The notes under the pieces: generated by a model
Databases searched by the model: none
Seen by the model: the letters and a program-made list of their open reading frames with translations, nothing else
Told to the model about the DNA's origin: nothing
Shown: positions 12,455-33,022 of the stretch, piece by piece
How positions within the stretch are numbered: position 1 is the stretch's first letter
How the letters are laid out: every line of letters starts with the position of its first letter
Position numbers and translations under genes: made by a program
Assembly: GCA_041687695.1 (NCBI GenBank)
Contig: JAWLBL010000022.1
Location: 1-64,000, forward strand
DNA: 64,000 bases
Direction: 5' to 3'
Source of the DNA: Myxococcota bacterium
GTDB lineage: Bacteria > Myxococcota_A > UBA9042 > PHBI01 > JAWLBL01

Positions 12455-13330
12455 TCAGGGGCGAGGGGACGCGGCAGCGTGGCGGTCGCGCCAGGCCGCG
12501 GAGGCGTCGAGGCCCAGGCTGTGTAGACGCGGGACGATGACGTGGTCGCGGACGTCGTCGAAGGTCTGGCGGGCGGCGGCGCCGTCGGTGAAGCCGAGGG
12601 CGCGAGCCTGCTCGAGGACGTCGGCCGGCGGCGGCGGGCCGGCGGTGAGCGTGAGCAGCTCGGCCTCGTAGGCGGCGAAGGCGACCGAGAGGTAGCGGTG
12701 GGTGCGGGCCAGGGCCGGGGCGTCGAGGCGGGGCAGGAGCAGGGTCAGCACCTCCCAGCCGAGGCGGGCGTGGAGGGTCTCGTCGCCGAGGAGCTGGCGG
12801 TTGATGGCGGCGATGAAGGGCTCCGCGATCTGCTGGCGCTGGCGGGCGAGGAGGCCGACGGCGACGGTCTCGGACAGACAGCCGATGAACAGGGCGTTGC
12901 GGAGGGCGGCCTCGAGCGGCGGGGCGGCGGCGTGGGCGGGCAGCAATGGCGGGCGGGGCGGGGCCGGGGCCTGGGGCTGGCCGCCCAGGTGGACGACGGC
13001 GCGGGCGCACAGGTCGCCGTGGTGCAGCTCGTCCATGGCGGCGCGCAGGCAGGTGAGGTGGACGCCCACGGGCAGGCCCGCCGCCATGAGCTGCGGGGCG
13101 AGCGCGGCGAAGAGGGCGGCCGAGTCGTGCTCGCGCACCATCTTGTGGCGCCAGTTCTCGCGGGCGAGCGCCACGGCGGCGGGCGCGAAGTCGGCCGACA
13201 GCGGGGCGGGCGCCCGGTCGGGGATCGGCGCGCCGCGGCGCAGCAGGCGCGAGACGATGGCGTCGCGCTCGTGGGCGAAGGGGCCGTCGGCGCCCGGCGT
13301 CAGGTCGAGGACGCGGGGGGCGTCGGTCAA
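12455..13330 (-). CDS. Ferritin-like domain (diiron) protein
   Basis: WRHKMVREHDS, DELHH, CLSET, DETLHARLGW motifs; TTG start overlaps the upstream stop (TTGA). Confidence 0.8.
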   Translation of the reverse strand: MTDAPRVLDLTPGADGPFAHERDAIVSRLLRRGAPIPDRAPAPLSADFAPAAVALARENWRHKMVREHDSAALFAALAPQLMAAGLPVGVHLTCLRAAMDELHHGDLCARAVVHLGGQPQAPAPPRPPLLPAHAAAPPLEAALRNALFIGCLSETVAVGLLARQRQQIAEPFIAAINRQLLGDETLHARLGWEVLTLLLPRLDAPALARTHRYLSVAFAAYEAELLTLTAGPPPPADVLEQARALGFTDGAAARQTFDDVRDHVIVPRLHSLGLDASAAWRDRHAAASPRP

Positions 13331-13779
13331 ATCAGGGCCTCTTCGGGCAGCTCGGGCGGGGCGAGCGGGCCCTCGACCGCGCACGAGCAGCCCCAGGCCG
13401 GCACCCAGACGCAGTCGATGGCGTCGGGGAACTCGTTGGTCGCGTTGCAGCAGTCGGCGTCGTCGTCCTTGGTGCAGGCCGGCGGGCAGACGTTGTCCGG
13501 GATGCCGCTGCACACCGGGCCGGCGTCGACCTCGAGCGCGTCCGGGGTGGCGTCGGCGGTGTCGGCGACGTCGGGCGGCGGGGTGTGGGTGTCGGACGCG
13601 GTCGTGTCGACGACCGCGTCCCCCACGGCGTCCTCCTGGGACGCGTCGCCCGTCGTGTCGCCGCTCTCGACGTCGCCGCGCTTGGCGTCCAGGCACCCGG
13701 CCAGGGTCACCGCGGCGACGGCGGCCGCGGCGCGGAGGCCGCGTGCTCTCAGGAACGATTCACGACTGCGGATGCTCAT
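13327..13779 (-). CDS. Cys-rich lipoprotein ending CSCAVEGPLAPPELP
   Basis: Lipobox LAGC, acidic linker, 8-Cys C-terminal domain. Confidence 0.8.
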   Translation of the reverse strand: MSIRSRESFLRARGLRAAAAVAAVTLAGCLDAKRGDVESGDTTGDASQEDAVGDAVVDTTASDTHTPPPDVADTADATPDALEVDAGPVCSGIPDNVCPPACTKDDDADCCNATNEFPDAIDCVWVPAWGCSCAVEGPLAPPELPEEALI

Positions 13780-13863
13780 GGGGGCTCTCTCGGTGGGTGA
13801 CGACCGTCCAGCATGCCGGGGCGGGGCGGCGCATTCAAGGACCGCGCCGCCCCGCGGGGAGCT

Positions 13864-16800
13864 TCACTCGATGCGGACGTCGTCGACGAGGATCACCGTA
13901 TCGTAGATGGAGTCGCCCGTGTCCGAGGCAAAGATGCGCAAGGTGAAGGGGCCCTGGCCGGCGAGGGCGGAGACGTCGTGGGTCGTCGTGATCCAGGGCG
14001 TCTCGAAGACGCCGCCGACGTCGAACTTCGCGGCGCTGGGCGTCAGGCCCTGGTGGAAGCGGCCACAGTTGCAGGGGTAGGTGCCCTCGCAGCTGGTGCC
14101 GGTGTCGTCGAGGGAGCAGGCGGAGGTGCCGACGCAGGCCAGGTCGCAGGCCGTCGGGTTCGGGCACGCGCCGCACGAGCCATCGGTGGGCCCGCACAAG
14201 TCGTCCACCTTCACCTCGACGACCACGACCTGCTCGCCCTCCGGGTCGTTCAGGGCGACGTGGAACTTGTCCTGGAAGGACGACCCACAGAACTCCTTGA
14301 ACTCCTCGGAGAGAAACTTCCAGGTCAGGGTCAGGGTGGTCACGTCTTCGGGGATGCAGACGTCCTGTTCGAGCGAGCCGCTCTGGACGGTCAGGCCGAG
14401 CCCGGTGGAGACCAAGCCCATGAAGCCGCCCTCGGGCGGCGACGAGCCGGAGAGCCCCGAGACGACCCGCGAGTCGCCTTCGGTGCGCCAGGCGTCGGTG
14501 CGGCCCGACTCGAAGCCGCCGTTGATGAGACCGGGATAGGACAGGTCGAGGTCGGTCGCTGCGAGGGAGCGCCACTTGCTGGCCGGGTGCGCGGGGTCGG
14601 CGCCGCCGGTGTGGGCGTCGAGCAGCGGGACGCCCGACAGGAGCGCCTCGAACAGGGCGACGACGCGGTCGCGGGCCCAGGCGCTGTCGACGTAATCGGA
14701 GAAGCCGGTGACGGCGGCGGCACCTCGGGCGATGAGCGCCGAGGCGAGGGTGCCGTTGTGGAAGGTGCGGCAGGCGCCCAGGTTGATCAGGCTGTTCGGC
14801 AGGCCGGCCTCGGCGTAGTGCTCGAAGAAGGCCGGCGTCATGGCAAAGCCGCGGTTGGTCAGCACGACGCGGCCGAGCCGCAGGTCGGCCTGGGTCCGGT
14901 CTTCGCAGTAGCCCGAAGCGCTGCCGCCCCCGCTGCCCAATACGGTCACGCAACGCGTTTTCGACGGACAGCCGCCGGTCGGATCGGCGGCGGTGACGGT
15001 GCAGGACTTGGGAGCCGTCTGGAGGGCATCGCAGGCGATGGGCTCGCCCGACCACAGGACCTCTTGCGCGCCCTGGTGGCGCCAGCCGAGGGCGGCTTTC
15101 GCCTGGGGCATCAGGTCGCCGAAGAGCGCCTCGCCGTGGGTGCTGATCGAGACGACGCCGTATCGGGACAGGGCGCGGAAGCGCTCGAGGGTCGCCATGG
15201 GCCCCCAGAGCACGTCGCCGGCCTCGACGCTGTAATGCGGGCACTGGCTGTTCGAGAGCGCTTCCGCGACTGCGGGGCCGTCGTCGGTGCCCTCGAATTG
15301 GCTCAGGAACGGGGCGAGGACGAGCGCGTCGCGGGCGCCGACCACTGGTTGCGCCTCGATCGCCGCCGGCGCGAAGCCGGGCGAGGCCGGCAGGGAGTCT
15401 GCGCCCGAGCCACCGCGGAGACCAGTCGGCGCGAGCAGGACGGCGCCGAGGATGCCGTCGTCGAAGCGCACCCACAGCGAGTGGCCGGGCCCCTCGGCCA
15501 ACCCGGCCTGCGCGACGGACGGATGTTGCTCGAGCGCCGCGAGGATGGAGTCGACGTCCTGGCCCGAGGCGGCCAGCCCCTGGGCTTCGGTCAGCGCCGC
15601 CTTGCGGCTTTGGCAGGTCAGCGGGTTGAAGCGCTCGAGGCAGGGAACGAACACGGGCTCGGACCAGGCGGCGAACGGCTCGGGCTCGGTCACCGCCAAG
15701 CGAGCGCGGTACCACTGGCCCTGGCCGGCGCAGGTCACGGAGGTCTTGTGCGAGAGGATGCGGTCTCCGGCGACCTCGTCACCGTAGGCCGAGGTTGCAC
15801 CGCTATCGACCATCGGGCCCAGGTCGATCGACCCGCCGTCCGGGGCGAGCTCGACGAGGGTGATCCCAGTGGGCTGGAGAGCGTCCACGGACGGGACCTC
15901 GAGCGTCGCGATCAGCTGCGTGGGCTCCGACTTCCAGAGGAAACCGGGGCGTACGCGCAGGGTGAGGTTCGGCGGCAGGCCGGGGTTGTAGGTGATGGTG
16001 ACGGTGTCGGTGGTCACCACGTCGCCCTGGGTCGCCGTGACGGTGACCACGTTGTCTCCGGAGGCGAGGGCGATGGGCTCGCTGTGCCAGAAGGTCTTGG
16101 GCGTGATGTCGCCCTCGTCGCCACCTTCGATGTGCCAAGCGAGCGAGTCGGCCTGGCCGAAGAGGAGACCGGACAGGACGACCTCGGGCTGGCCGACCGT
16201 GGCGGAGGGGCGGCCCTGGCCGGGCGCCGTGATGCGGACGAGGAGGCCGGCGGCCGGGTAGCCGTCTTCCAGGTTCTCTTTCTCGAAGCAGGCGCCGGCG
16301 ACGCAGACCTTGTCTGCCGCGACGCAGTCGACGGTGTCGAGGACCGTCAGCCCGTCCTCGCTGCAGGTCACCGCCGAGTCGCCCTGGCAGTGGGCGCCGG
16401 GGGGGCAGACCCACTGGACGCAGGCGGCGCCGTCCGCCGACGGGGCGCAGGACTCGCCGTCGAGGCAGGCCGTCGTCTCGAAGCCGGCCCCGTTTTCGAT
16501 GCAAGTGGCGAGATCCGACCCGCTGCACTTCATCTGGCCGGGAACGCACACGTCGACGAGGCAGGCGAGCGGGGCCCCGGGAGCGGGTTCAGCGCAGTGG
16601 TAGGCCGGCGGGCAGTCCGGGTCGGCGGTGCACTGCGAGCAAATGCCCTTGGATTTGTCACAGAGCTGACCCTGAGGCGTGCAATCTTTGTCCGAATCGC
16701 ACGGCGTCGCGGGGTAGCACGTGCCAGAGGCGCACATCGCACCTTCGCTGCAGTCGGCGTCGGCCTCGCAGTCGGCGCAGCGGCCGTCGGCGCAGACCTG

Positions 16801-17283
16801 GAGGCCGGGGCAGTCGAGCGAGTTGACGCAGGCCTGGTGCGGGACGCATTGCTGGGCGATGCAGTCGGCCGGGTCGGGGCAGTCGCTGGCCTGGAGGCAG
16901 GCGACGCACAGGCCCAGCGCGGCGGCGCAGAGGGGCTGGCCCGGCGTCGAGGCGCAGTCGGCGTCGGATGCGCAGGCCACCGGCGGCGAGTCGATGTCGG
17001 GCGCGTCGTCGCTGGTGTCGGGCGCGTCGTCGCTGGCGTCGAGCGCGTCGTCGCTGGCGTCGAGCGCGTCGTCGCTGGCGTCGAGCGCGTCGTCGCTGGC
17101 GTCGGTCGCGTCGTCACTTGCGTCGTCGGAGACCTCGCCACCGGCCCCGTCGGGATCGTCCGCCACCTCGAGGGCGACGTCGACGAGCCCGCCTACGCCT
17201 TGGGAGGGCGAGTCACAAGCGGCGAGGGCGAGCGCCGCGAGGGCGAAGAGGGTGAGCGGCCGTCGCGAGCCGAGTGTCATCAT
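13864..17283 (-). CDS. Large Cys-rich surface lipoprotein
   Basis: Lipobox LAAC; DASDDAL repeats; C..D.DC repeats; C-terminal NGGFE..W.. beta domain. Confidence 0.8.
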   Translation of the reverse strand: MMTLGSRRPLTLFALAALALAACDSPSQGVGGLVDVALEVADDPDGAGGEVSDDASDDATDASDDALDASDDALDASDDALDASDDAPDTSDDAPDIDSPPVACASDADCASTPGQPLCAAALGLCVACLQASDCPDPADCIAQQCVPHQACVNSLDCPGLQVCADGRCADCEADADCSEGAMCASGTCYPATPCDSDKDCTPQGQLCDKSKGICSQCTADPDCPPAYHCAEPAPGAPLACLVDVCVPGQMKCSGSDLATCIENGAGFETTACLDGESCAPSADGAACVQWVCPPGAHCQGDSAVTCSEDGLTVLDTVDCVAADKVCVAGACFEKENLEDGYPAAGLLVRITAPGQGRPSATVGQPEVVLSGLLFGQADSLAWHIEGGDEGDITPKTFWHSEPIALASGDNVVTVTATQGDVVTTDTVTITYNPGLPPNLTLRVRPGFLWKSEPTQLIATLEVPSVDALQPTGITLVELAPDGGSIDLGPMVDSGATSAYGDEVAGDRILSHKTSVTCAGQGQWYRARLAVTEPEPFAAWSEPVFVPCLERFNPLTCQSRKAALTEAQGLAASGQDVDSILAALEQHPSVAQAGLAEGPGHSLWVRFDDGILGAVLLAPTGLRGGSGADSLPASPGFAPAAIEAQPVVGARDALVLAPFLSQFEGTDDGPAVAEALSNSQCPHYSVEAGDVLWGPMATLERFRALSRYGVVSISTHGEALFGDLMPQAKAALGWRHQGAQEVLWSGEPIACDALQTAPKSCTVTAADPTGGCPSKTRCVTVLGSGGGSASGYCEDRTQADLRLGRVVLTNRGFAMTPAFFEHYAEAGLPNSLINLGACRTFHNGTLASALIARGAAAVTGFSDYVDSAWARDRVVALFEALLSGVPLLDAHTGGADPAHPASKWRSLAATDLDLSYPGLINGGFESGRTDAWRTEGDSRVVSGLSGSSPPEGGFMGLVSTGLGLTVQSGSLEQDVCIPEDVTTLTLTWKFLSEEFKEFCGSSFQDKFHVALNDPEGEQVVVVEVKVDDLCGPTDGSCGACPNPTACDLACVGTSACSLDDTGTSCEGTYPCNCGRFHQGLTPSAAKFDVGGVFETPWITTTHDVSALAGQGPFTLRIFASDTGDSIYDTVILVDDVRIE

Positions 17284-17409
17284 GGTCCGAGCCCTCGAGA
17301 GTGCGGGGAGACGCGGACCGACGTAGGCCGCGTGGGGGCGGACCCTAGCTCGGCGGGCGCGTGGGCGGCAACGCCTTCCGCCGGACTTGGTTACCCGGAC
17401 GCGGCCGGG

Positions 17410-18597: not shown

Positions 18598-18604
18598 GGG
18601 GGGG

Positions 18605-18883
18605 TCAGCCTCCGCTGAGGGCCTGCAGGATGAAGACCTTGGCGTCCGGGGCCACCGGGTCGGTCAGCCGCGTCCGGTCGACGACCCGATCCTGGCCGAT
18701 GAAGACGTTGACGTGCGGGCGCAGGCGGCCGCGCTCGTCGCACAGGTAGAAGGCGAGGCCCGGGGCGAGGGCGTCGAGCGCGCCGATGATCTCGGCGACG
18801 GTCGCGCCCGGCACGTCGAGGTCCGTCCCGGCGAGGGCCGGGAAGAAGTGGTGCAGGTGGCGCGTGAGCTCGACTCTGGGCAT
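18605..18883 (-). CDS. MoaD/ThiS family ubiquitin-like protein
   Basis: GATVAEII..L, RPHVNVFI, C-terminal ALSGG. Confidence 0.9.
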   Translation of the reverse strand: MPRVELTRHLHHFFPALAGTDLDVPGATVAEIIGALDALAPGLAFYLCDERGRLRPHVNVFIGQDRVVDRTRLTDPVAPDAKVFILQALSGG

Positions 18884-18958
18884 GGGGCGGGATGATAGCG
18901 GAGGGTGCGGAGGTGACAAGGGGGGCCCCGGAGCGAGCGCGCGCGCGACCGACGCCAC

Positions 18959-21900
18959 CTACTTCTTCTTGTCCTTGTCCTTCTTGCTGGACTCGCTGTT
19001 CACCTTGTCGAGGAGCTTGGCCAGCGTGAACAGGCACGAGGTGATGTACAGCGCGTCGATCTTGATCTTGCGCAAGGCGGGATGGGCTTCGCCGTGCTTG
19101 GCGAGGATGCGCTGCCACTCGGCGGCGGCGGCCTGGGCGATGTCGATCGCGCCCTGCAGCTTCGTCCAGTTGCTGCTCATCATCGCGGTGGGGTCGTCGT
19201 TGGTCACGAGGATGCGCGCGATGTCGATGCAGTAGGCGGCGGCCGCGTGGCTGCGATCCTGGGGATCGTCCATCGCTTCGATGAGCGAGATGAGCGTGTC
19301 CTCGTACATGTTCAGGCGCGGCAGCGCGCTCAGCTGGCCCAGGACGCCGCGGCCGATGGTCAGGTGATCGGCCTGCTGCTTGGCGAGCTTCGGGTCGGCG
19401 ACGATGGTGCGCGTCTTGCCCCCGTGCTTGCCGGTCTGCTTGCTCTTGGCGTCCTTCGCCTCGGCCTCCAGCTCCTCGGGGGTGAGGGTCGAGCTGTCGA
19501 GCGAGTGGACGCCCACCTCGTGCGCCAGCAGCCCGACGGTCTGTCCCACCGAGAACGCCTCGACCTGGTAGTCGTCGAGGTTCACGGTGACGCGGTTTCC
19601 GTCGCTGGTCGTGCAGGCGATGTCATTGGTCACGGTGGGCCGAAGCCGGATGCGGATGACCAGCGGCGGCTGCCGCTCGGCGATGAAGCGCGAGCCCAGG
19701 ATCGCCTTCGCGACGCCCCGGGTCCAGGCGTCGAGCTTCTTGGACCGGCCCAGGACGTTGCCTGTCGCCTGGAACTCGATGCGGGTCCCGGCCTCGTTCT
19801 TGTCGAAGTAGTAGGTCTCGAACTCGCCACCGCGGACGATTCCCTGGCGCCCCTCGAGGATGAGGCGGACCGTCGCGAGCTGAAGCTGGGCGCTCTCGTT
19901 GCCGTCCGCGTGCTTGTCGAAGTGGCCGGCCAGCTCGATCAGTTCGTCGGTCTGCATCCCGTCGTAGATGTCGTAGAGGCCGCTCTGGTCGATCTCCTCG
20001 CGCGACTTGTCGATCTTGGGCTTGTCGCGGCGCAGCATGAGGTCGTAGACGCCCGCAAGCTCCTTGTTGTCGTCGACGCGCTTGAGGACCTCGTAGGCGT
20101 CCCAGTCGCTGCCGCCCTTCTTCAGGAACTCGCGCGTGAGGCGCTCGCGCTCCTTGATCTCGGGCAGCTCGAGCTTCTTGGAGCGGCTGAAGATGAGCTC
20201 GGAGAGGATGTCCTCGTGCAGGGTCCAGGCGGAGTCGAACGAGGTGCGCTCGTCGTCGCTGTCTTGATCGGCGTCCAGCACATAGGTGTAGAGCGTGGCG
20301 AGCGCGTACGACGGCGCCGAGTGCCCGCCCATGCGGTGCGAGCCGACGTCCACCTGCCGCGTGCGAGGGCTCATCACGCCCTCCTCGCCCGACTTGCCCT
20401 TGCCCATGTCGTCGGACTCGACCCAGCCGCCGTGGCCGTCGCGCATGACCGCCACGTAGTGGCCGCCCTCGTGGTGCGAGAAGGTGTTGCGGACGATGAA
20501 GGCCTGGAGCCGGTACCGGGGGCCGGGTCGACGCGTGCCGGTCACCGACGCTGGGAGCCGGAAGACCTCGGGCATGTCGATGTGGTCGCGGCCGCTCTGG
20601 CGGAGCATGCCGATGGAGAGCACCTCCGGGAACGAGGTGGCGCGGCGGGTCCTCTCGTGAGGGTTGGCGATGCCTACGCCGTCGCGCCGTTCGCGGGTCA
20701 CGAAGTAGGACTCGAGCGCCTCCTCGAGCGTCGCGTGGCCGACGGCGGTGAGCTGCAGGACCGTCTCCTGCATGCGGTTGTACTGCGGAGCCTGGAGCGG
20801 GTCGTCGTACACCACGGCTTCGCTCGTCTCGAGCAGCCGATCACCGGGCATGATGCGCTGCAAGATCGCCATCAGGACCTGGCTGGCGTCCTGCTGCTGC
20901 GTGACCCCGCCGACCAGCAGGCCCAGGGAGTCGAGCACGCCCAGCAGGTGGCGGACCTGCTTGGCCGGAACCGTCTCGTTGCCGCGCAGGGTCTGCAGCA
21001 TCGGGCCGATGGTGACCTGGAGCAGGCGCGCCTCGCTGCCCTCCTGCGTACGGTTGACGAGCGGATCGAACATCCGCCGGTACGCGGGTACGGCGGCGAT
21101 GAGGTTCAGCAGACTGGCCGCGTAGCAGCTGTTCTGGACGTGCTCGACGCCGCCCCCCGAGCGCGCCTCGACCTCGACCGCGTCGCCGTTTTCGAGCATC
21201 GGCAGCGCGCGGTCGAAGGTGAAGGTGCTCGTCGCGAGCGTGAGGAACAGATCGCGGATCTGCGGCGCCGACTTCGGAAGCGGCTCGGACTCGGGCATGA
21301 GCTTGAGCCCGAGCAGGACGGTTGCGAAGACGCTCGGGTCGATGCTCAGGACCTGGACGAGCGGCTCGTCGCGGTGGCGCAGGACCAGGGCCCGTACATC
21401 GTGCTCGCCCTTTCGTTCGAGCTGGCCCTTGAGCCACATGAGGTACTTCTGAACGCGCGCGGGGAGCTGCGCGAAGATGCTGCTCAGCAGCCGTAGGTTC
21501 TGCTGGTAGTGACTCAGCAGGACCAACGCCTGCTGTTGCGAGGGCACCTCGTCGCCGTCCTCGCCCTCTTCCTTGTTCCCGAGGCCGTGTCCCCCCTTGC
21601 GCTGGACCGCAGGCGTGCCCGCACCCGACGCGGCAGGCTGCGGCGCGAAGGTGTCGAGGAGGGCCTCGGCCGACTCGCCGCTGACCACCCGGTCCGCGAC
21701 CGCGTCGGCGTTGCGTTCGTAGTCGTCGCCCGAACGTCCGAGCCCCCCTTCGAGCTGGACCCCGGCGCGCTGCTGGACGACGTGTGCCGCCTCGTGCGCC
21801 GCAGTGTGCAGGCTCGGCGCCGATTGAAAAGCCACCTTGTTGCCCGTCGCGTAGGCCTCGGCGCCGAGCGCGCTGGCCGCGCTGGCCGCCGCGCCGCCGG

Positions 21901-22198
21901 TGTGCGCCTCGATGCCGCTGACGTCGTGTCGACCGAAGCTACGTTGGATGCGATCGGCGTGGGGCAGGGGTCCCGCGCCGCCGGAGGTCCCCTGCGCCGC
22001 AACTTCCGTGGGCGCGGCCGGCTGCAGCGAGCGCTCGGCGGCGCCCCCGGGGGTCAACGCTGCGCGCCCCTCGTCATAGCTCATCGCCTGCAGCGACTTG
22101 CGGAAGACGCCCAGCCGGTCGCCCGACGAGACGGCCGCAGCCGGCTCATCGCGCGTCGTTTGGTCCCGTCGCGCGTCCGATTCCACTCGCTGAGTCAT
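18959..22198 (-). CDS. DUF4157 (eCIS core) protein with USP/peptidase C19-like domain
   Basis: DUF4157 motif [21 protein letters not shown] Cys box NSCY, QQDA, His box GGHYVA..WVESDD. Confidence 0.85.
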
Positions 22199-23310: not shown

Positions 23311-23772
23311 TCAGTCGCCCGGGTCGAAGGTCGTGAGCGCCGCCTCGAGGGCGGGGCGCACCTTGCTGAAGCGCTCGTAGGGGCCGGCGGCCTCGACCAG
23401 GACGACGCGGTCGCCGACCACGAAGACGGTCTCGGACAGGACCCAGTCCTCGGCGCCGTGGGGCAGCAGGAAGTCCAGGCGGCAGCCGGGGAGGCGCCGC
23501 TGGGTCTCGAAGCACTGCTCGTGCTCGAACACGTAGCCGCGGGCGGTGAGGTGCCGCTTCATCGCGTCGACCCAGAAGGGCAGGGTGGCGACCGGCTCGT
23601 TGTCGACCTCGCGGGCTTTGAGCAGCACGCCGTCGGCGGTGATCATCTTGAAGTCCGAGCCGTCCTCGTACTTCTTGAAGCCCTCGGGGACGGCCATCTG
23701 GTAGGTGGGGCCGCAGGCGACGAGGGCGGCGGCGGCGGCCGGGGCGAAGAGGGACCGGAGGAGGCGCCGCAT
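23311..23772 (-). CDS. Hypothetical lipoprotein
   Basis: Lipobox LVAC; homologous to the C-terminal domain of 24428-25654. Confidence 0.8.
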   Translation of the reverse strand: MRRLLRSLFAPAAAAALVACGPTYQMAVPEGFKKYEDGSDFKMITADGVLLKAREVDNEPVATLPFWVDAMKRHLTARGYVFEHEQCFETQRRLPGCRLDFLLPHGAEDWVLSETVFVVGDRVVLVEAAGPYERFSKVRPALEAALTTFDPGD

Positions 23773-24431
23773 CAGAAGTCCCTCAGGAAGCGGTCGAGGT
23801 CGACCGTGTTGAGCCAGCCGAAGGGCGAGCGGACGTAGGTGATCTTGTCCTGCCGCTGGAAGTTGAACTGCACGGTGACCACGGCCCAGCGGGCGCGCTC
23901 GCGGGCGACGCGCAGGCGGCCTCGGACGTGCTCGAGCTCGGCGACGAGGGCGGTCATCTGGCGCTCGATCTGCAGCGTGGCCTGCACGTTCGAGTCGTCG
24001 ATGAACCGGCGCAGGCGCTCGAAGATCTCGGTCTTGCTGCGGAGCTGGGCCTCGAGCTGGGCGATCTCGTCGGTCACGTCGACGCGCTCGAGCCCCTTGT
24101 CGATGACGTGGCCGCGCGCGGCGATTCGCTGCATCACGGCGTCGAGCTGGCCTGGCGGCACCTTGAGGTGGACCCGATCGTCGGTCATCAGGGTCGGGAA
24201 GCCGCCGAGGGCCTTGGCGTCCTCTACGATGGCCTGCCGCGAGGCGACCGGGTGGGCGACCTTGATGAAGATGCGCGCCATGAGCGCGGTCTGGCGGCCG
24301 TCGGTGGCGCCTTCGGCGAGGTCGGTGACGTCGGCGGCGGGCTCGGCCGGCCGGGCGTTGGAGGGGAGCGACTCGGCGAGCGCCGGTGAGGTCGTGAGCA
24401 GCAGGGCGGAGAGGATGGCGCGTCGCATCAC
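23772..24431 (-). CDS. DUF4349-like exported protein
   Basis: LGG......LKVP, DVTDEIAQLEAQL coiled coil. Confidence 0.75.
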   Translation of the reverse strand: MMRRAILSALLLTTSPALAESLPSNARPAEPAADVTDLAEGATDGRQTALMARIFIKVAHPVASRQAIVEDAKALGGFPTLMTDDRVHLKVPPGQLDAVMQRIAARGHVIDKGLERVDVTDEIAQLEAQLRSKTEIFERLRRFIDDSNVQATLQIERQMTALVAELEHVRGRLRVARERARWAVVTVQFNFQRQDKITYVRSPFGWLNTVDLDRFLRDF

Positions 24432-25654
24432 TGCACCCGGAAGGTCGAGAGGGACTGGACGACCGCGTCGCGGTGCTTGGTGAAGGCGTCCTCGGTCGGG
24501 AAGAAGCCCTCGACGACGAAGAGATCCTCGCCGGCCGCGTGGACGGCCACGAGGTAGACCCGCGGGGCGACGTCCTTGTTGCGGAAGAAGCGGTAGGTGA
24601 GCGCGCCGGCCTGGCCCTGGGCGACGGTCTCCTCCTCGCGGCCGTCCATCTCGAACTGGACCGCGGCCATCCAGAAGGCGGCGTCGCCGCGCGGCTCGTT
24701 GTCGACGCGGGCGGCGCGCAGCATCGAGGTGTCGGCCGACTGGGCGCGGAAGACGTCGTCGTCGTCGAAGAGGACGAAGCCGGCGGGGACCTTCATGGTC
24801 AGGTCGTCCTTGCCGTCGTCGAGGGTGACGCGGTGGGGGCGCAGGTCGCGCACCCAGGAAAAGGGCGAGCGCGGGAGGTTCCTGGCCGAGGTCTCGACGA
24901 TGGGCTCGAGCTCGAGGGTGATGGTGAAGTAGTCGACCAGGTTCTGCAGCGAGGCCAGGGTCGAGGTGAGGCTCTCGATGAGCTCCGACTGGCGCTTGAT
25001 CTCCTGCAGGATGCGCAGGCGCTCCTCGGAGTCCTTGGTCTGCTCGAGCAGGGCCAGCAGGCGGTCGCGGGCATTCCTGGCGACCTCGAGGCGGGCGGAG
25101 AGGTCGGTGAACTGGGCCGTGACGTCGAGGGCCTCGACGCGGCGGCCGAGCACGTCGCCGAGCTGGGCGAAGCGGGCCAGGACCGAGTCGAAGTCGGTGG
25201 CCGGGATGCGGACCACGACCGCGCGGGCGGACATCGAGGCGATGTAGCCGCCGGCCTGCTGGGTCAGCTCGGTGATGGCGTCGATGGCGCCGAGCAGGCG
25301 CTTGACCCGCAGGCGCAGGTAGCCGACGTAGACGACCATCGCCTCCATGGGGGCGGAGGGCTTGTCGGCCTTGGGTGTCGAGGGCGCCTGTTGTCTGGGC
25401 TGGGGCGACTGCGATGGCTTGGCGGCTTTGGACGGCGACGACGGGCGGCGCGCCGAGGTCGAGGCGACCTGCGGGCGGGCGTAGTCGTCGGCGACCGCTT
25501 CGCCCTCGAAGTCGTAGTGACGCGCGCCGGGCGCCGGCGCCGGCTCCTGGCGGTAGCTGCCGTCGCTGTGTTCGTAGGGCTTCGCGGCGCCGCAGGCGCT
25601 GACGAGCAACGCCAGCGCGGCGGCGAGCGGGGTGAGGACGCGGGGGTGACGCAT
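24428..25654 (-). CDS. DUF4349 domain lipoprotein
   Basis: RBS GGAGG; lipobox VSAC; GGYI..VRIPA..F, DVTAQFTDL.ARL. Confidence 0.8.
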   Translation of the reverse strand: MRHPRVLTPLAAALALLVSACGAAKPYEHSDGSYRQEPAPAPGARHYDFEGEAVADDYARPQVASTSARRPSSPSKAAKPSQSPQPRQQAPSTPKADKPSAPMEAMVVYVGYLRLRVKRLLGAIDAITELTQQAGGYIASMSARAVVVRIPATDFDSVLARFAQLGDVLGRRVEALDVTAQFTDLSARLEVARNARDRLLALLEQTKDSEERLRILQEIKRQSELIESLTSTLASLQNLVDYFTITLELEPIVETSARNLPRSPFSWVRDLRPHRVTLDDGKDDLTMKVPAGFVLFDDDDVFRAQSADTSMLRAARVDNEPRGDAAFWMAAVQFEMDGREEETVAQGQAGALTYRFFRNKDVAPRVYLVAVHAAGEDLFVVEGFFPTEDAFTKHRDAVVQSLSTFRVQ

Positions 25655-25737
25655 GGGCGGGCCTCCTGAAGGCCCGCGTAGGGTAGCGGGGACCGGAGGC
25701 GGTGTCACCGGGGGGCTGTAGCCGCGCCCAGGCCGCT

Positions 25738-26042
25738 CGTGAGATTCGCCACGCGTGTAGCCTCCGCTTCGGCCGGCCTCAAGGGCTTTCTCCCCCTTGG
25801 CCGGCCTGGTCGGCCGGCCAATTCCTCGCGGACGCGAAAGCCCTTGACCCCGGCCTTCGCTGCGGCTGGGGGGCCAATAGCGGGCCGGAAGGGGACCTTC
25901 CGGGCCGCTGGCGCGTCCCGGCTGGGCCGAGATGCGGGCTGCATGGGTTGGGCGCGCCTCTCGGCGTCGCGGGAACTAATGGCTCAGGTATTTAGTCGTC
26001 CCGGGACGACGCTGAAGCCGCCGGTCGTCGTCCCGGGACGAC
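25738..26042 (+). repeat. Left long imperfect inverted repeat of the HNH-2 element
   Basis: Aligns with the reverse complement of 27454-27765; carries GTCGTCCCGGGACGAC at 25995 and 26027. Confidence 0.9.
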
Positions 26043-26049
26043 AGGTGTT

Positions 26050-27216
26050 TCACAGCGCCAACTGCCCGGTGGGGCAAGGCGAGTTCGTCGATGTCTTTCC
26101 GGCTCGTCGCTTGCGTTCGATGAAGGCGGCTCCCAGCTCCTGTCGGGCGATGAGCTGGTTGTGGGCCTGACAGACCAGGCTGAGGTTGTCGGCCGAGTGA
26201 GCCCCTCCCACCGCGAAGGGCTCGTGATGATGGAACTCGAGCCGCCTCCGCTCCCGACAGCGCCCCGCCGGGCCCTGGTAGCTACAGCGCAACCCGTCCC
26301 GCTCGACCATCGCCCGCTTCACCTCGGCCGGGATGGCCCGGCTGCGGTCCGTTGGTTCGAGGGGTCCCTCCGCGACGGCGTCACCCTGCTCGTCCTGGCG
26401 CTCCTGCTCGCTCACTTCAACGGCGGCCTTGGCCGGCCCCTCGGCCTTCGGAACCGCCGCGGCCTTCCTGGCCTTCGGCTTGCGTCCGACCCCGAACCGC
26501 TGCTTCTTCTTGGCGAACAGAAAGGCGTCCAGGGCCATCTCGAACAGCCGCTCATAATCCCCAGCGGCGACCTGGTGACCGGCCAACGCCATGGCCTCCT
26601 CGAGCTTGCCGGCCACCCGCGCGTCGACGGTGATCTGGACCTTGAACCGCGTCTCCGACAGCGGCTCGACCGTGTGGCGAGGCCTTGGCGCCCTCAGCTC
26701 GACTCCGTCGTCCCGGGACGACGCGACCGACTCGCTCTCCTTCGGCGCGATCGTTCGCCCCACGCGTCGCACCGGCACTTTCGCGACCCGCGCCGGCACA
26801 TCCGGCCGAGGCGACCATTTGGCCACCAGCAGCTGCAGTTCCTGGCGGGTCTTCCCCGCGGCCTCCGTCAGCCGCTCCTCGGCATTGTCCTCAGCCAGAT
26901 GCTGCCGCAACGCCCTGAGTCCGCTGAGGCTCAATCGACCATCAGCCAGCATCTCCAAGCCAATCGGGTGCTTTCGAACGACCTCGACGACCTTGGTGTA
27001 CGTCCAGGCTTGGTCCTCCGACAGTCCCCACCGCGCCATGCACCAGTCGGCCAGCGTCGACGCCCCGTCGGTCAAGTGAAGGTCCCGCCGCGCGACCTCG
27101 ACCAGGCAGGCCACCAGGTTCGCCGTCGCCCTCCGATGCACCCCGACCAGCCGGTCGGCCGTGGCCTTCAGGTTCCCATCGGACAGCTTCGCCAGACAAG
27201 CCGTTCGCTCGCTCAT
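26050..27216 (-). CDS. DUF222-like HNH endonuclease (HNH-2)
   Basis: RBS GAGGAG; SRAIPAEVKRAMVERDG.RC...C...LEFHH..P...GG.....NL...C..HN. Confidence 0.85.
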   Translation of the reverse strand: MSERTACLAKLSDGNLKATADRLVGVHRRATANLVACLVEVARRDLHLTDGASTLADWCMARWGLSEDQAWTYTKVVEVVRKHPIGLEMLADGRLSLSGLRALRQHLAEDNAEERLTEAAGKTRQELQLLVAKWSPRPDVPARVAKVPVRRVGRTIAPKESESVASSRDDGVELRAPRPRHTVEPLSETRFKVQITVDARVAGKLEEAMALAGHQVAAGDYERLFEMALDAFLFAKKKQRFGVGRKPKARKAAAVPKAEGPAKAAVEVSEQERQDEQGDAVAEGPLEPTDRSRAIPAEVKRAMVERDGLRCSYQGPAGRCRERRRLEFHHHEPFAVGGAHSADNLSLVCQAHNQLIARQELGAAFIERKRRAGKTSTNSPCPTGQLAL

Positions 27217-27453
27217 CGCGGACACTCCTCGTCTTCGTGAGCGCGAAGCATACCACAGGGGTTCCGCGCCCTTCGGAGCACCCCCTGGACGGCCGTTCAG
27301 GCTCTCCGGACACCCTGCGAGGACCCTCACCCCCGATCAGTGCCACCACGAGCCCGCCAGGGGCCTCCACGGGCCCGTCCTCGCCCGACCCTCGGTCGCT
27401 CCCGAAACCCGCCCTCAGACTGTCAACCTCTTTTTCGACTCTCTGCCGTCTCC

Positions 27454-27765
27454 GTCGTCCCGGGACGACGGCCCGCGCCTGCAGCGTCGTCCCGGGTAAC
27501 TACCTATGCGTTTAATTCCAGCGCGCCTCAGACCCGCGCCCACCTGCCGCTTCCAGCCACCTTGCCCCGACCGGGACGCGCCAGCGGCCCGGAAGGCCCC
27601 CTTCCGGACGGGGGCTGCGCCCCCGAGCCCCGCTTTGTGCAGCCGCAGCGAAGGCCGGGGTCAAGGGCTTTCTCGTCCGCGAGGAATTGGCCGACCGCAG
27701 GGCGGCCAAGGGGGAGAAAGCCCTTGAGGCGGCCTGCGCTGCGGCTACCCACGTGACGACTCCCG
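27454..27765 (-). repeat. Right long imperfect inverted repeat of the HNH-2 element
   Basis: Inverted copy of 25738-26042; palindrome at 27454 and degenerate copy at 27486. Confidence 0.9.
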
Positions 27766-27844
27766 TAGACATCCGCGCCGCGAAACACCCGCCAGTCCCG
27801 CCCACTGACGGTCGGCGGAGGTTCGAGCACACCGAACCCAGCCC

Positions 27845-28651
27845 TCACACCAGATTCAACGCCCGCAGCTGCGGAAGCAGCTTCCCCTCGAGGGTCTGCT
27901 GGTAGACCAGGGCCTGACGCTCGGGGGAGTACAGGCCCAGGGCGACGCGGTCCTCGTCGGGCCAGGCGTCGAGGTGGCGGCGGTCGGCGGGGATGCGGGC
28001 CAGGACGGGCTCCAGGCCCTGGCGCAGCGGGGCCAGCGCGTCGTGGGCGATCTGGCGCCAGACCGACAGGCTGGAGATGGGGAAGCGCTGGAGCGAGCGC
28101 TTGATGTACTCCCAGCCGAAGGACTCGTGCGCCTCCTCGTCGGCGACGGTGGCGTCGAGGACCTTGCGGACGACGGGCTGCTGGCAGCGCTGCTGGAGAT
28201 CGGTGATGAAGCCGACCGAGAGGGTCTCGTTGACCGCCAGCATCGAGATGGCCGTGGCCAGCGCACGCTCGGGCGGCGAGGCCTGCAGGAACGCCTTCTT
28301 CTCGGGGATCTCGGGCGGCTCGGGCAGCGCGGGTGCGCCGCCGAGGGCCTGCAGGAGGTCGGCGCACAGCGCCATGTGGCGCACCTCGTCCGCGATGAGG
28401 TCGACCACGCCCGCGTAGACCTCGAGCGGGTCGCCCGCGGCGAGGACCTCGCCCATGAACCGGTTCATGATCTGGATGGAGCGGAACTCGGTCGAGAACC
28501 GCTGATGCCAGACGGCCCGCGCCTCGGCGACCAGCGACTCGGGGAAGGCGGCGACGTCCAGCTGGCCGTAGTCGATGTCGACCTGCATCAGCTCGCGGTG
28601 GAGGTCGCGGAAGACGCCGCCGGTGCGCTTGAGGATCCGCGGCGCGGTCAC
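27845..28651 (-). CDS. Ferritin-like domain (diiron) protein
   Basis: WHQRFSTEFRS, DEVRH, AVNET, DEEAHESFGW; GTG start overlaps the upstream stop (GTGA). Confidence 0.85.
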   Translation of the reverse strand: MTAPRILKRTGGVFRDLHRELMQVDIDYGQLDVAAFPESLVAEARAVWHQRFSTEFRSIQIMNRFMGEVLAAGDPLEVYAGVVDLIADEVRHMALCADLLQALGGAPALPEPPEIPEKKAFLQASPPERALATAISMLAVNETLSVGFITDLQQRCQQPVVRKVLDATVADEEAHESFGWEYIKRSLQRFPISSLSVWRQIAHDALAPLRQGLEPVLARIPADRRHLDAWPDEDRVALGLYSPERQALVYQQTLEGKLLPQLRALNLV

Positions 28652-29931
28652 TGCTCGGCCTTGCACGTCTGGCCGGCGGGGGCGCAGGTGCCGTCGCCGC
28701 AGTCCGTGAAGGGCAGGTAGTTGCAGACCATGCCCTCGGGGCAGCAGGTCGTGGTGATCTGGCCGTTGTCGCAGATGGGGTCCCACGAGCCGCCGGGGCA
28801 CTCGTCCTTGGGGTCGGCGGGGCACTCGAAGTAGCTGCAGGTGTCGCCACCGCAGTACTGGAGGTTCATTCCGTAGTTGCAGGCCATGCCTTCAGGGCAG
28901 CACAACCAGGTGAGCTTGCCGTTGCCGCAACCCTCCTCCCACGTGCCGTCGCAAGTCTCCTCCCCGGGGCACTCCTCGGGCATGTTCACGCAGGTGCCGT
29001 CACCGCAGTCCTGCGCCAACATGCCGAAGTTGCAGACCGCCCCCTCGGGGCAGCACGCCGGCTGCCAGTGGCCGTCGGTGCAGATCTCGCCCCAGTAGCC
29101 GTCGCACTCGTCGTCCTTGGGGCACTCGTCGGGGTAGCTGACGCAGGTGCCGTCACCGCAGTCGACCAGGGTCATGCCGTAGTTGCAGGCCATGCCCTCG
29201 GGGCAGCACATCGGGGTCACCTGGCCGTCGACGCAGGCGTTCTCCCAGGTGCCGTCGCACTCGTCGTCCTTGGGGCACTCGTCGGGGTAGCTGACGCAGG
29301 TGCCGTCGCCGCAGAGCTGCAGCCCCATCCCGTAGTTGCAGGCCATGCCCTCGGGGCAGCACAGCTCGACCGGCTGACCGTCGACGCAGCCCGTCTCCCA
29401 ATAGCCGCTGCACTCGTCGACGTCGCCCGGCACGTCGTGCGAGACGTCGGGGCCCACGTCGCCCGGCTCGCTCGTGTCCTGCTGGACGTCCGGGACCGCC
29501 ACGTCGGCCGCGTCCCACGCGTCGGCGTCGCCCTCGACCACGTCCTCAGCGTCGCAGGTCTCGGGGTAGTTCTTGCAGCTCCCGTCGTCGCACCACTGCA
29601 CGCCCATGCCGTAGTTGCAGATCATCCCGCCCGGACAGCACACCTGGACGGCCTGCCCGTCCTCGCAGGCGGTCTCCCAGTTGCCGTCGCACTCGCCGAC
29701 GTCGGCGCCCGCGTCGCCCGTCGTGTCGCCCTCGACCGCGTCCTTCTTGGTCTCGACGTCAGTGACCTGGGCGTCCTGCTTGGGCTCGGCCGGGGCCGAC
29801 TCGCAGGCCTGCAGGAACAGCGCGACGGCGACGACGAGCGTGCCCACCAGGGCGCCGAGGCCCGAGCCGCCGACGCAGCCGGCGAGCAGCAGCGACAGAC
29901 CGATCATTCCGAGGACGCCGTACACACGCAT
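28648..29931 (-). CDS. Cys-rich repeat lipoprotein with six CCPxGxxCN[YF] units
   Basis: RBS AGGAG; LLAGC and FLQAC lipobox-like sites; six ~50-aa 8-Cys repeats. Confidence 0.85.
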   Translation of the reverse strand: MRVYGVLGMIGLSLLLAGCVGGSGLGALVGTLVVAVALFLQACESAPAEPKQDAQVTDVETKKDAVEGDTTGDAGADVGECDGNWETACEDGQAVQVCCPGGMICNYGMGVQWCDDGSCKNYPETCDAEDVVEGDADAWDAADVAVPDVQQDTSEPGDVGPDVSHDVPGDVDECSGYWETGCVDGQPVELCCPEGMACNYGMGLQLCGDGTCVSYPDECPKDDECDGTWENACVDGQVTPMCCPEGMACNYGMTLVDCGDGTCVSYPDECPKDDECDGYWGEICTDGHWQPACCPEGAVCNFGMLAQDCGDGTCVNMPEECPGEETCDGTWEEGCGNGKLTWLCCPEGMACNYGMNLQYCGGDTCSYFECPADPKDECPGGSWDPICDNGQITTTCCPEGMVCNYLPFTDCGDGTCAPAGQTCKAEQ

Positions 29932-30476: not shown

Positions 30477-30506
30477 GGGGCCTCCTTGGGAGGGGACGCT
30501 TGGGGG

Positions 30507-33022
<2,516 letters not shown>

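What the first reader, a model, noticed from the sequence alone, without database searches (positions are those of the whole stretch)
12455..29931. Two translationally coupled pairs of Cys-rich lipoprotein and ferritin-like diiron protein
Seen: 13327-13779 is followed by 12455-13330 (TTGA overlap), and 28648-29931 by 27845-28651 (GTGA overlap). Both downstream proteins share W......E..S / DE..H / ET / DE..H...GW, lack a signal peptide, and follow different Cys-rich exported proteins. Known: ferritin-like diiron enzymes perform oxidative chemistry. Inference: a dedicated maturase that modifies the Cys-rich protein before export (RiPP-like), or a metal-handling pair.
Basis: partly seen in the sequence, partly recalled or inferred. 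Interest (0 to 1): 0.7.

Follow-up and report, generated by a model that had tools for sequence, protein, structure and literature searches.

The report
Diiron enzymes paired with cognate lipoproteins
Two gene pairs in this myxobacterial genome belong to a large, unnamed family in which a ferritin-like diiron enzyme is always encoded next to (sometimes fused to) its own kind of exported lipoprotein, which suggests an undescribed way of chemically maturing lipoproteins.

Summary
Both pairs exist at the stated coordinates with TTGA and GTGA stop/start overlaps. The two downstream proteins are homologues (31% identity, E 6e-22) that keep the full E/ExxH/E/ExxH diiron ligand set and have no signal peptide.

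The linkage is strongly conserved. The enzyme family occurs in 161 of 401 sampled Myxococcota genomes and splits into clades, each tied to one partner type.
- The pair-2 clade goes with lipoproteins built of a new 8-Cys "CNYG" repeat (adjacent in 22 of 25 loci).
- The pair-1 clade goes with small lipoproteins whose only invariant feature is a C-terminal GPxxPP motif (19 of 21 loci, then 30 of 37).
- Partner type never crosses clades.
- In one subclade partner and enzyme are fused into one lipobox-bearing protein.

No Pfam or NCBIfam model reaches its cut-off for either enzyme, and none matches either partner type.

My best reading (about 0.45) is a dedicated oxidative maturase acting on its cognate lipoprotein. 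This follows the logic of MNIO-made bufferins and DAG-RiPPs but uses a different iron-enzyme fold. No chemistry or binding was tested: the complex predictor was unavailable. The fused forms raise an unresolved question about which compartment the enzyme works in. "Cys-rich" is not the common denominator, and I found no support for a metal-handling role.

The parts
13327..13779 (-). P0001: 150-aa lipoprotein precursor and partner of the pair-1 enzyme. It has the n-region motif GLRAAA, a lipobox LAGC (Cys29), an acidic linker, an 8-Cys C-terminal region and a GPLAPP tail.
   Evidence: Translation. Tail alignment A3, where G49, P50 and P53 are invariant in 16 of 16 orthologous tails. It is the only significant match to that tail profile in its own genome (E 3.9e-11; one other match at E 0.047).
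13354..13371 (-). GPLAPP: the family-defining C-terminal GPxxPP motif of P0001 (residues 137-142).
   Evidence: Most relatives read CxPWGPPxPP.
12455..13330 (-). P0002: 291-aa ferritin-like diiron protein with a TTG start and no signal peptide. Ligand columns are E67, E101/H104, E154 and E184/H187.
   Evidence: Orthologues at 33-46% identity (A2).
13327..13330 (-). TTGA: overlap of the P0001 stop and the P0002 start.
28648..29931 (-). P0003: 427-aa partner of the pair-2 enzyme, with six tandem 8-Cys CNYG repeats separated by acidic linkers.
   Evidence: These are the only matches to the repeat profile in its own genome (6 of 6 hits in this gene).
29803..29931 (-). N-terminal 43 residues of P0003. 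A signal-like segment ends in LAGC (Cys19), followed by a Gly-rich turn and a second hydrophobic segment ending in LQAC (Cys43).
   Evidence: The same two-segment layout appears in all 20 class-1 partners that I read. It is the only real case among 626 crude lipobox candidates in the genome.
28660..29691 (-). Six CNYG repeat units: 29551-29691, 29272-29412, 29119-29259, 28966-29106, 28819-28953 and 28660-28797.
   Evidence: The AlphaFold model of one unit has pLDDT 95.6 and two beta-hairpins. No PDB match was found.
27845..28651 (-). P0004: 268-aa ferritin-like diiron protein with a GTG start and no signal peptide. Ligands are E55, E89/H92, E142 and E172/H175.
   Evidence: Model pLDDT 95.6. 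Best structural matches are ADO-like proteins, R2lox and PaaA at Z 15.9-16.2.
28648..28651 (-). GTGA: overlap of the P0003 stop and the P0004 start.

Best explanation
Both pairs are members of one large, unnamed Myxococcota module: a soluble ferritin-like diiron-carboxylate oxidase encoded with its own cognate lipoprotein.

Shown here:
- The enzyme keeps a complete diiron site and a catalytic-type fold.
- Each enzyme clade is tied to a single partner family. Pair 1 goes with lipoproteins that have a conserved RxALRAA signal n-region and a C-terminal GPxxPP motif. Pair 2 goes with 8-Cys CNYG-repeat lipoproteins.
- Gene order can change without breaking the linkage.
- In one subclade the two proteins are a single polypeptide.

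Inferred:
- The diiron protein is a dedicated O2-dependent maturase. It installs an oxidative modification on its cognate lipoprotein, at or near the GPxxPP tail in pair 1 and at an unknown site in pair 2.
- In the split systems it would act in the cytoplasm on the precursor, before Sec export and lipidation. This is the route shown for MNIO-modified bufferins and DAG-RiPPs.
- The reaction type (hydroxylation, cross-link or cleavage) is unknown.
For: Enzyme character:
- The E/ExxH/E/ExxH columns are invariant in both clades.
- The model is confident (pLDDT 95.6).
- Best structural matches are ADO-like proteins 5ux2 (Z 16.2, rmsd 2.8, 189 aligned), R2lox 4hr0 (15.9) and PaaA 3pvr (15.9). Ferritin/Dps matches reach only Z 10-11 over about 140-150 residues.

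Linkage, pair-2 clade:
- A CNYG-repeat ORF lies directly upstream in 22 of 25 loci, and 1.8 kb upstream in one more.

Linkage, pair-1 clade:
- A GPxxPP-tail lipoprotein gene is adjacent in 19 of 21 loci. It is upstream in 17, convergent in 1 and downstream in 1.
- It is adjacent in 30 of 37 further loci, in several orientations, with two tandem copies in L073 and L127.

Specificity and co-occurrence:
- Partner type needs only 3 changes on the enzyme tree, the minimum for four states, and never crosses clades.
- The repeat profile hits 16 of 401 genomes, and 15 of these carry a pair-2-clade enzyme.
- In G305 the two genes sit on different contigs, yet both are present.

Fusions:
- 28 of the 150 best cluster representatives are 375 aa or longer.
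- Of these 28, 23 have GPxxPP upstream of the first ExxH and 23 have an N-terminal lipobox (8 read in full).
- Two fused genes were confirmed in genomes, L133 and L136, out of 12 loci examined.

Other:
- Rearranged loci still encode signal-less enzymes with their own start codons.
- Precedent: signal-less iron enzymes modify a conserved C-terminal motif of lipobox precursors in the cytoplasm (PMC13056109, passages).
Against: - No modification, mass shift or binding was tested. The complex predictor was unavailable.
- The fused proteins carry a lipoprotein signal ahead of the enzyme domain. That would send the enzyme across the membrane and is awkward for a purely cytoplasmic mode of action.
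- Other paralogues (L004, L045) place the ferritin-like domain at the end of proteins whose N-termini look like secretion signals.
- No leader-binding (RRE-like) protein, protease or transporter recurs near the module.
- The nearest structural relatives act on fatty acyl chains or small molecules, not on proteins.
- Cys positions in the repeats come and go in pairs, as expected for structural disulfides. If so, the Cys are probably not the target in pair 2, and no other candidate site was identified.
Confidence: 0.45

Rival explanations
1. The two proteins are subunits of one stable complex that works outside the cytoplasm, on the envelope. The GPxxPP tail would be a docking or linker element rather than a substrate. 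The ferritin-like domain would carry out redox or metal chemistry (Fe/Mn oxidation, peroxide handling) while tethered by the lipoprotein.
For: - Natural fusions place a lipoprotein signal in front of partner plus enzyme: 23 of the 28 long representatives, and L133 and L136.
- Distant paralogues have the ferritin-like domain at the C-terminus of proteins whose N-termini look like secretion signals (L004, L045).
- Gene fusions are more typical of complex subunits than of enzyme-substrate pairs (general knowledge).
Against: - The split enzymes have no signal peptide of any kind. This includes loci where the partner lies downstream or on the other strand.
- A twin-arginine motif is not conserved in the partner signals (my reading), so folded co-export by Tat is unsupported.
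Confidence: 0.2
2. The enzyme makes or modifies a lipid or small molecule, as its structural relatives do. The partner lipoprotein would carry, bind or receive that product.
For: - Best fold matches are aldehyde-deformylating oxygenase-like proteins, R2-like ligand-binding oxidase and PaaA.
- The protein atlas lists acyl-ACP desaturase clusters at feature score 0.92.
- Weak profile matches to DesA2 and ADO.
Against: - These matches all tie at Z about 16 and show only the shared catalytic diiron fold.
- Clade-specific partner families, a conserved partner peptide motif and fusions point to protein-protein recognition.
Confidence: 0.12
3. A metal-handling or oxidative-stress pair: the ferritin-like protein detoxifies iron or peroxide in the cytoplasm, and the Cys-rich lipoprotein binds metal outside.
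For: - In this window pair 2 lies just downstream of a cytochrome c, a CcoI/FixI-like P-type ATPase and a CcoG/FixG-like protein.
- LysR-type regulators occur in about 9 related loci and at 8629-9570 in the window.
- There are sub-threshold Rubrerythrin and Ferritin-like Pfam matches.
Against: - The cco-type neighbours are not found in any of the 25 related loci.
- Some pair-1 partners have no Cys in the C-terminal tail examined (L038, L081).
- Cys in the repeats vary in pairs, like disulfides.
- Ferritin/Dps are weaker structural matches.
- The LysR regulator in the window matches only generic models below their cut-offs.
Confidence: 0.1
4. A lipoprotein toxin with a cytoplasmic immunity protein, as in the myxobacterial SitA/SitI cassettes delivered by outer-membrane exchange.
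For: The layout fits: a lipoprotein gene followed by a tightly coupled gene for a signal-less protein, present in several copies per genome. The comparison with SitA/SitI rests on recall and comes from no call.
Against: - The downstream protein keeps an intact diiron site and is 41-65% identical across orders, unlike fast-evolving immunity proteins.
- The partners carry no recognisable toxin domain.
- Fusing a toxin to its immunity protein would be odd.
Confidence: 0.04

Closest known systems
DAG-RiPPs: ChrH-family MNIO enzymes with lipobox-bearing precursors (PMC13056109; abstract and passages read)
   Same: - The precursor has a lipoprotein signal peptide and a short conserved motif at or near the C-terminus (CPxCGxG there, GPxxPP here).
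- The iron-dependent oxidase has no signal peptide and is encoded alongside.
- Some substrates are whole proteins, not just short peptides.
   Different: - The enzyme here has a ferritin-like helical-bundle diiron fold, not the MNIO TIM barrel.
- The conserved motif is Pro-rich and need not contain Cys.
- No modification has been shown.
- Partner-enzyme fusions carry the signal peptide.
Bufferins: BufB/BufC MNIO systems (PMC11626156, search listing and start of abstract; PMC12452194, one passage)
   Same: The precursors are Cys-containing and have Sec signal peptides, and about 16% of Buf2 have lipoprotein signals. They are modified by a signal-less iron enzyme, and duplicated Cys domains occur.
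   Different: - The enzyme superfamily is different.
- No DUF2063-type partner is present.
- No copper or metal context recurs.
- The Cys in the CNYG repeats behave like disulfide pairs.
Catalytic ferritin-like diiron oxygenases: aldehyde-deformylating oxygenase, R2-like ligand-binding oxidase, PaaA, AurF/CmlI
   Same: They share the fold and the six-ligand E/ExxH/E/ExxH site. There are weak sequence matches to AurF, DesA2 and ADO.
   Different: Sequence identity is only 6-17%. All Pfam scores fall below their gathering cut-offs. None of these enzymes is known to be paired with, or fused to, a lipoprotein (recalled).
Myxococcus cysteine-rich acidic repeat (TIGR02232 / DUF4215)
   Same: Short, acidic, Cys-rich repeats in myxobacterial exported proteins. 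One such protein lies directly downstream of pair 1 (9779-12244).
   Different: P0003 does not match this model (nothing at E up to 1). Its 46-residue CNYG unit has a different Cys pattern and no PDB match.

Membership tests
Ferritin-like diiron-carboxylate superfamily | Helical bundle carrying the six metal ligands E, ExxH, E, ExxH | tested here: met
   The ligand columns are invariant in A1 (25 sequences) and A2 (20 sequences). The model is all-helical with pLDDT 95.6. It matches diiron oxygenases at Z 14-16.
AurF family (Pfam PF11583) | Score at or above the Pfam gathering cut-off (29.6 bits) | tested here: not met
   P0004 scores 27.1 bits and P0002 scores 15.6 bits. AurF 2jcd gives only Z 11.3.
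DUF455 (PF04305), Rubrerythrin (PF02915) and Ferritin-like (PF12902) | Score at or above each gathering cut-off | tested here: not met
   P0004 scores 23.3 against a cut-off of 34.3, 15.9 against 22.8, and 19.2 against 22.3. P0002 has no match to any of the three.
Iron-storage ferritin / bacterioferritin / Dps | Compact four-helix subunit of about 150-180 residues that forms a cage with a ferroxidase centre | tested here: inconclusive
   These match at Z 10-11 over about 140-150 residues, below the oxygenases. Oligomeric state is not testable here.
MNIO-type RiPP systems (bufferin, DAG-RiPP) | Modifying enzyme of the MNIO/DUF692 TIM-barrel family | tested here: not met
   No MNIO Pfam match. 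The fold is ferritin-like.
MNIO-type RiPP systems (bufferin, DAG-RiPP) | Precursor with a Sec or lipoprotein signal and a conserved core motif, encoded next to a signal-less enzyme | tested here: met
MNIO-type RiPP systems (bufferin, DAG-RiPP) | Demonstrated post-translational modification of the precursor | not testable with these tools
   This needs mass spectrometry. The complex predictor was unavailable.
Myxococcus cysteine-rich acidic repeat (TIGR02232) | Match to the repeat model | tested here: not met
   NCBIfam finds nothing for P0001 or P0003 at E up to 1.
Bacterial lipoproteins (Lgt/LspA substrates) | Positively charged n-region, hydrophobic core and a lipobox ending in Cys | tested here: met
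   The sequences of P0001, P0003 and about 40 partners were read directly. Actual lipidation is not testable here, and no signal-peptide predictor was available.
Tat-exported proteins | Conserved twin-arginine motif in the signal n-region | tested here: not met
   RR is present in only some partner signals. The conserved core is A-L-R-A-A (my reading).

The most novel reading that the evidence does not exclude
A new class of protein-modifying enzymes. On this reading, ferritin-like diiron oxidases install an oxidative modification on dedicated lipoprotein precursors, for example on the C-terminal GPxxPP motif. That would be a second, independent iron-enzyme route to RiPP-like lipoproteins, including self-contained fused forms. 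In pair 2 it would be coupled to an unprecedented tandem signal/lipobox N-terminus that stages export.
Probability: 0.35. Interest if true: 0.85.

Novelty: new variant of a known kind. Interest (0 to 1): 0.7.

Why it matters
**Scale.** The enzyme family is large and unnamed. It occurs in 161 of 401 sampled Myxococcota genomes, often in several copies. The pair-1 clade profile finds 3982 cluster representatives at E up to 1e-10.

**Chemistry.** If the enzyme does modify its lipoprotein, ferritin-like diiron proteins would join the few iron enzymes known to edit ribosomal proteins. The "signal peptide as leader" logic of bufferins and DAG-RiPPs would then extend beyond the MNIO fold.

**Testable handles.**
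- A six-residue motif (GPxxPP).
- Natural fused and split versions of the same system.
- A confident new 46-residue disulfide-type repeat fold.
- Relatives in records that name cultivable genera (Archangium gephyra; Lujinxingia vulgaris).

**A separate puzzle.** The double hydrophobic segment and double lipobox N-terminus of the pair-2 partners is an unexplained problem for lipoprotein export.

Tried and rejected

Binding is therefore untested.
- Fold searches with the CNYG repeat model found nothing: VIA wide gave 0 chains at Z 2 or more and Foldseek gave 0 at E up to 10. For a 47-residue model this is weak evidence of novelty.
- A search for fused forms of P0004 longer than 470 aa found none. 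The tool itself calls this weak evidence.
- The search of earlier findings by sequence, words and place gave nothing that bears on this finding.

**No other gene is consistently linked**
- Window neighbours of both pairs are not found in the 25 related loci.
- All-against-all clustering of ORFs from the loci found only a LysR regulator, in about 9 loci.

**No named family for the partners**
- Pfam and NCBIfam scans of 14 GPxxPP partners and of P0001/P0003 gave only sub-threshold low-complexity hits.

**Ideas considered and dropped**
- Tat export: the twin arginine is not conserved.
- Programmed frameshifting that would make a fused product from the overlapping genes. No slippery site is visible at either junction, and loci with the partner downstream or on the other strand still have complete signal-less enzymes.
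- The partner as an Fe-S or rubredoxin-like electron donor: some partners have no Cys in the tail examined.
- A cytoplasmic, metal-binding location for the CNYG domain, as a hairpin topology would predict. It is disfavoured by the pairwise Cys pattern but not excluded.

**Literature**
- 'ferritin-like / cysteine-rich / lipoprotein / Myxococc' and 'ferritin-like / RiPP / diiron / precursor peptide' listed no paper on such a system.


Full report
**1. Observation**

The window is 68-77% G+C. Named relatives of its proteins are all Myxococcota or unclassified "bacterium" records.

- P0001 (13327-13779, minus strand) is a 150-aa lipoprotein precursor. It has a lipobox LAGC, an acidic linker and 8 Cys in its last 60 residues.
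- P0002 (12455-13330) starts at a TTG that overlaps the P0001 stop as TTGA.
- P0003 (28648-29931) starts at an ATG preceded by AGGAG. It has 50 Cys.
- P0004 (27845-28651) starts at a GTG that overlaps the P0003 stop as GTGA.

GC3 is 0.95-0.97 for all four. P0002 and P0004 are homologous (31% identity, E 6e-22). P0001 and P0003 are not.

**2. The enzymes**

Pfam gives only sub-threshold matches (AurF, DUF455, Ferritin-like, Rubrerythrin), and NCBIfam gives nothing.

In an alignment of 25 family members the invariant columns include E55, E89, H92, E142, E172 and H175 in P0004 numbering. The equivalent columns are invariant in 20 members of the P0002 clade. This is the classical diiron-carboxylate ligand set.

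The AlphaFold model of P0004 is confident (pLDDT 95.6, pTM 0.91).
- Foldseek finds only diiron oxygenases and oxidases, at E 0.017 or weaker and TM 0.5-0.6.
- VIA-align ranks ADO-like proteins (5ux2, Z 16.2; 6d9f, 16.1), R2lox (4hr0, 15.9) and PaaA (3pvr, 15.9) first, all tied.
- Ferritin, bacterioferritin and Dps reach Z 10-11 over shorter stretches.
- A PDB sequence-profile search gives only weak DesA2, ADO and AurF matches.

So these are catalytic-type ferritin-like diiron proteins of no named family. Neither has a hydrophobic N-terminus.

**3. Distribution**

- P0004 has 125 relatives at E up to 0.001 among 5176 scored candidates. Those with names are called hypothetical, ferritin-like domain-containing, or diiron oxygenase.
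- The family profile hits 161 of 401 sampled Myxococcota genomes, with up to six scored copies per genome.
- The P0002-clade profile finds 8245 cluster representatives at E up to 0.001, 3982 at up to 1e-10 and 229 at up to 1e-30.
- The window's own genome has four copies: the two pairs, a third on contig 48, and a fourth on contig 3.
  - The contig-48 copy lies behind an unrelated lipoprotein, with an ATGA overlap by my reading of the coordinates.
  - The contig-3 copy is fused to the C-terminus of a protein with a secretion-like N-terminus.

**4. Linkage, pair-2 clade**

- Of 25 loci from species-representative genomes, 22 have a Cys-rich repeat ORF (10-46 Cys) directly upstream on the same strand. 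Each ends within a few tens of bases of the enzyme start.
- L024 has one 1.8 kb upstream, behind an OmpA-like gene. L010 and L013 have none adjacent.
- tblastn with P0003 finds 20 of the 25. No other window neighbour recurs.
- In the window's genome the repeat profile matches only P0003 (6 of 6 hits).
- Across the phylum sample it hits 16 of 401 genomes. Fifteen of these are among the 18 genomes whose best enzyme match was 1e-78 or better.
- The exceptions are G199 (one weak repeat hit and no enzyme), G248 (a diverged class-2 partner) and G113 and G137 (other upstream genes).
- In G305 the repeat gene and the enzyme gene are on different contigs.

**5. Linkage, pair-1 clade**

Orthologues of P0002 from the same order and phylum are preceded by small lipoproteins. 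In these the only invariant residues are G, P and P of a C-terminal GPxxPP motif (16 of 16 tails). Most read CxPWGPPxPP.

Two of the 16 tails contain no Cys at all (L038, L081). Their signal n-regions share an R-x-A-L-R-A-A-like motif (my reading).

In the 21-row clade:
- 16 partners were found upstream by script.
- L073 has two tandem copies upstream.
- L076 has a convergent copy and L082 a downstream copy.
- L031 and L079 have none within the DNA held.

I then fetched 40 more family places. They were taken in listed order and are not a random sample.
- 37 are P0002-like. By my reading of the script output, 30 of these have an adjacent GPxxPP-tail gene.
- Most partners are upstream. They are downstream in L106, L109, L113 and L114, and on the other strand in L104, L110 and L117. 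L127 has two copies.
- Seven had none: L094, L096, L099, L101, L108, L111 and L128.
- The three loci that resemble the contig-48 paralogue had none.

Junctions where measured are -4, -1, +2, +4 and +58 nt. Pfam and NCBIfam have no model for 14 such partners.

**6. Specificity**

I built a quick maximum-likelihood tree of 67 distinct enzyme sequences.
- The P0004 clade (37 rows, SH-aLRT 100) holds 29 adjacent CNYG partners, 1 distal, 2 cut by contig ends and 5 with none or another gene.
- The P0002 clade has 21 rows (support 91).
- Partner class needs 3 changes, the minimum for four classes. No locus mixes an enzyme of one clade with a partner of the other.

Caveats: I corrected 12 labels by eye before counting, because the script missed ORFs that overlap the enzyme start. 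Kin are not independent.

**7. Fusions**

- Among the 150 best representatives of the P0002-clade search, 28 are 375 aa or longer.
- Of these 28, 23 have GPxxPP upstream of the first ExxH and 23 have an N-terminal lipobox by a crude test.
- I read eight in full. All run: partner region, WGPPxPP, 3 to about 25 residues, then the enzyme's LDLR-type N-terminus, with no stop. Seven of the eight start with a signal and lipobox.
- Two fused genes were confirmed in genome DNA (L133, and L136 from a 3-contig assembly) out of 12 loci of that subclade. The other ten are split.
- Frameshift errors could create single cases but hardly 23 separate 50%-identity clusters.

Fusion argues for direct functional contact. 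Because the signal peptide precedes the whole protein, it also raises the question of where the enzyme works.

**8. The partners**

*CNYG repeat.* The unit has the consensus xxGxWExCCxDGxIxxCxCPAGxACNYGWxxxCGDGTCxxxxxxCP (43 units). Its model is confident (pLDDT 95.6, two beta-hairpins), with no PDB match.

*Cys pattern.* Two pairs of Cys columns are gained and lost together.
- Columns 7 and 17: both present in 35 units, neither in 8, one alone in 0.
- Columns 0 and 18: both in 11, one alone in 1, neither in 31.
- The single exception is the last repeat of P0003. Its first Cys lies two residues further upstream, outside the stretch I cut.

This is the pattern expected of disulfides, so the domain is probably extracytoplasmic. 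The variants come from only a few lineages, however, so independent events are few.

*N-termini.* All 20 class-1 partners that I read begin the same way: a signal-like segment ending in a lipobox Cys, a Gly-rich turn, and a second hydrophobic segment ending in a second lipobox-like Cys. In class-2 partners the second segment is followed by Arg and AxA, and then by AG(P/A)PxP, which recalls the pair-1 motif. A crude genome-wide scan found this layout in P0003 alone among 626 lipobox candidates. The other 4 hits look like polytopic membrane proteins. I cannot explain this layout.

**9. Mechanism**

*Shown:*
- an intact catalytic-type diiron site;
- clade-specific, reciprocal and rearrangement-tolerant linkage to one partner family each;
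- fusion in one subclade;
- split enzymes that lack signal peptides, even when the partner is downstream or on the other strand.

*Inferred:*
- The enzyme oxidatively modifies its cognate lipoprotein.
- In the split systems this would happen in the cytoplasm before Sec export and lipidation. The DAG-RiPP paper proposes the same for DybH, a signal-less enzyme whose lipobox precursor carries a C-terminal CPxCGxG motif.
- In fused forms the reaction could occur in cis on either side of the membrane, if it needs only O2 and metal.

I put this at about 0.45. The main rival is an envelope complex in which GPxxPP is a docking element (0.2). A lipid or small-molecule product (0.12), a metal or stress pair (0.1) and toxin-immunity (0.04) follow.

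**10. Comparison and novelty**

The logic matches MNIO systems (bufferins, DAG-RiPPs), but the enzyme fold, the motif and the partners differ, and no model or paper names this module. Literature searches listed nothing on it, and the MNIO landscape paper does not mention ferritin. I file it as a new variant of a known kind. It would be more than that if a protein-modifying ferritin-like oxidase were demonstrated.

**11. Limits**

- No binding, expression or chemistry was tested (searches failed).
- No signal-peptide or topology predictor was available.
- Many partner calls rest on my reading of six-frame ORFs in high-GC DNA.
- Supplements of the cited papers were not opened.

Noticed in passing
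window 29803-29931 (-), and loci L005-L025, L060, L063, L064: The partners of the pair-2 clade start with two consecutive hydrophobic segments, each ending in a lipobox-like Cys (LAGC ... LQAC in P0003). Standard topology rules would put the Cys-rich domain in the cytoplasm. The paired Cys pattern suggests it is outside.
   Followed up: partly
L019, L021, L026-L029, L067, L068: Class-2 partners of the pair-2 clade have AG(P/A)PxP directly after the signal region and before the first Cys domain. This recalls the GPxxPP tail of the pair-1 partners and could be a shared recognition or target element.
   Followed up: no
G000 contig 48 (L003: partner about 851-1423, enzyme about 1420-2253) and contig 3 (L004): A third ferritin-like paralogue follows an unrelated lipoprotein that looks PEGA-like, apparently with an ATGA overlap. 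A fourth is the C-terminal domain of a protein whose N-terminus looks like a secretion signal.
   Followed up: partly
P0186-P0263 (representative library); L133 and L136: Natural single-chain fusions in the order lipoprotein signal, partner, WGPPxPP, diiron enzyme. There are 23 of 28 long forms among the 150 best representatives.
   Followed up: yes
window 30084-35540 (-): Directly upstream of pair 2 lie a cytochrome c, a CcoI/FixI-like P-type ATPase with a metal-binding domain, and a CcoG/FixG-like 4Fe-4S protein. This neighbourhood does not recur in related loci.
   Followed up: partly
window 18959-22198 (-): A 1079-aa protein combines an eCIS core domain (PF13699) with a ubiquitin C-terminal hydrolase domain (PF00443).
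   Followed up: no
window 9779-12244 (-): An 821-aa protein with Myxococcus cysteine-rich acidic repeats (TIGR02232/DUF4215) lies directly downstream of pair 1 on the same strand.
   Followed up: no
window 26050-27330 (-): A 426-aa ORF downstream of pair 2 has only a weak match to the IscB RNA-guided endonuclease model (residues 335-409, 30.5 bits against a cut-off of 175).
   Followed up: no
window 8629-9570 (+); L005, L080, L082, L093, L105, L109, L111, L114, L118: LysR-type regulators lie near the module in about 9 related loci, in varying orientation, and 2.9 kb from pair 1 in the window. Only generic LysR models match.
   Followed up: partly
window 23772-25708 (-): Two adjacent DUF4349 proteins.
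   Followed up: no
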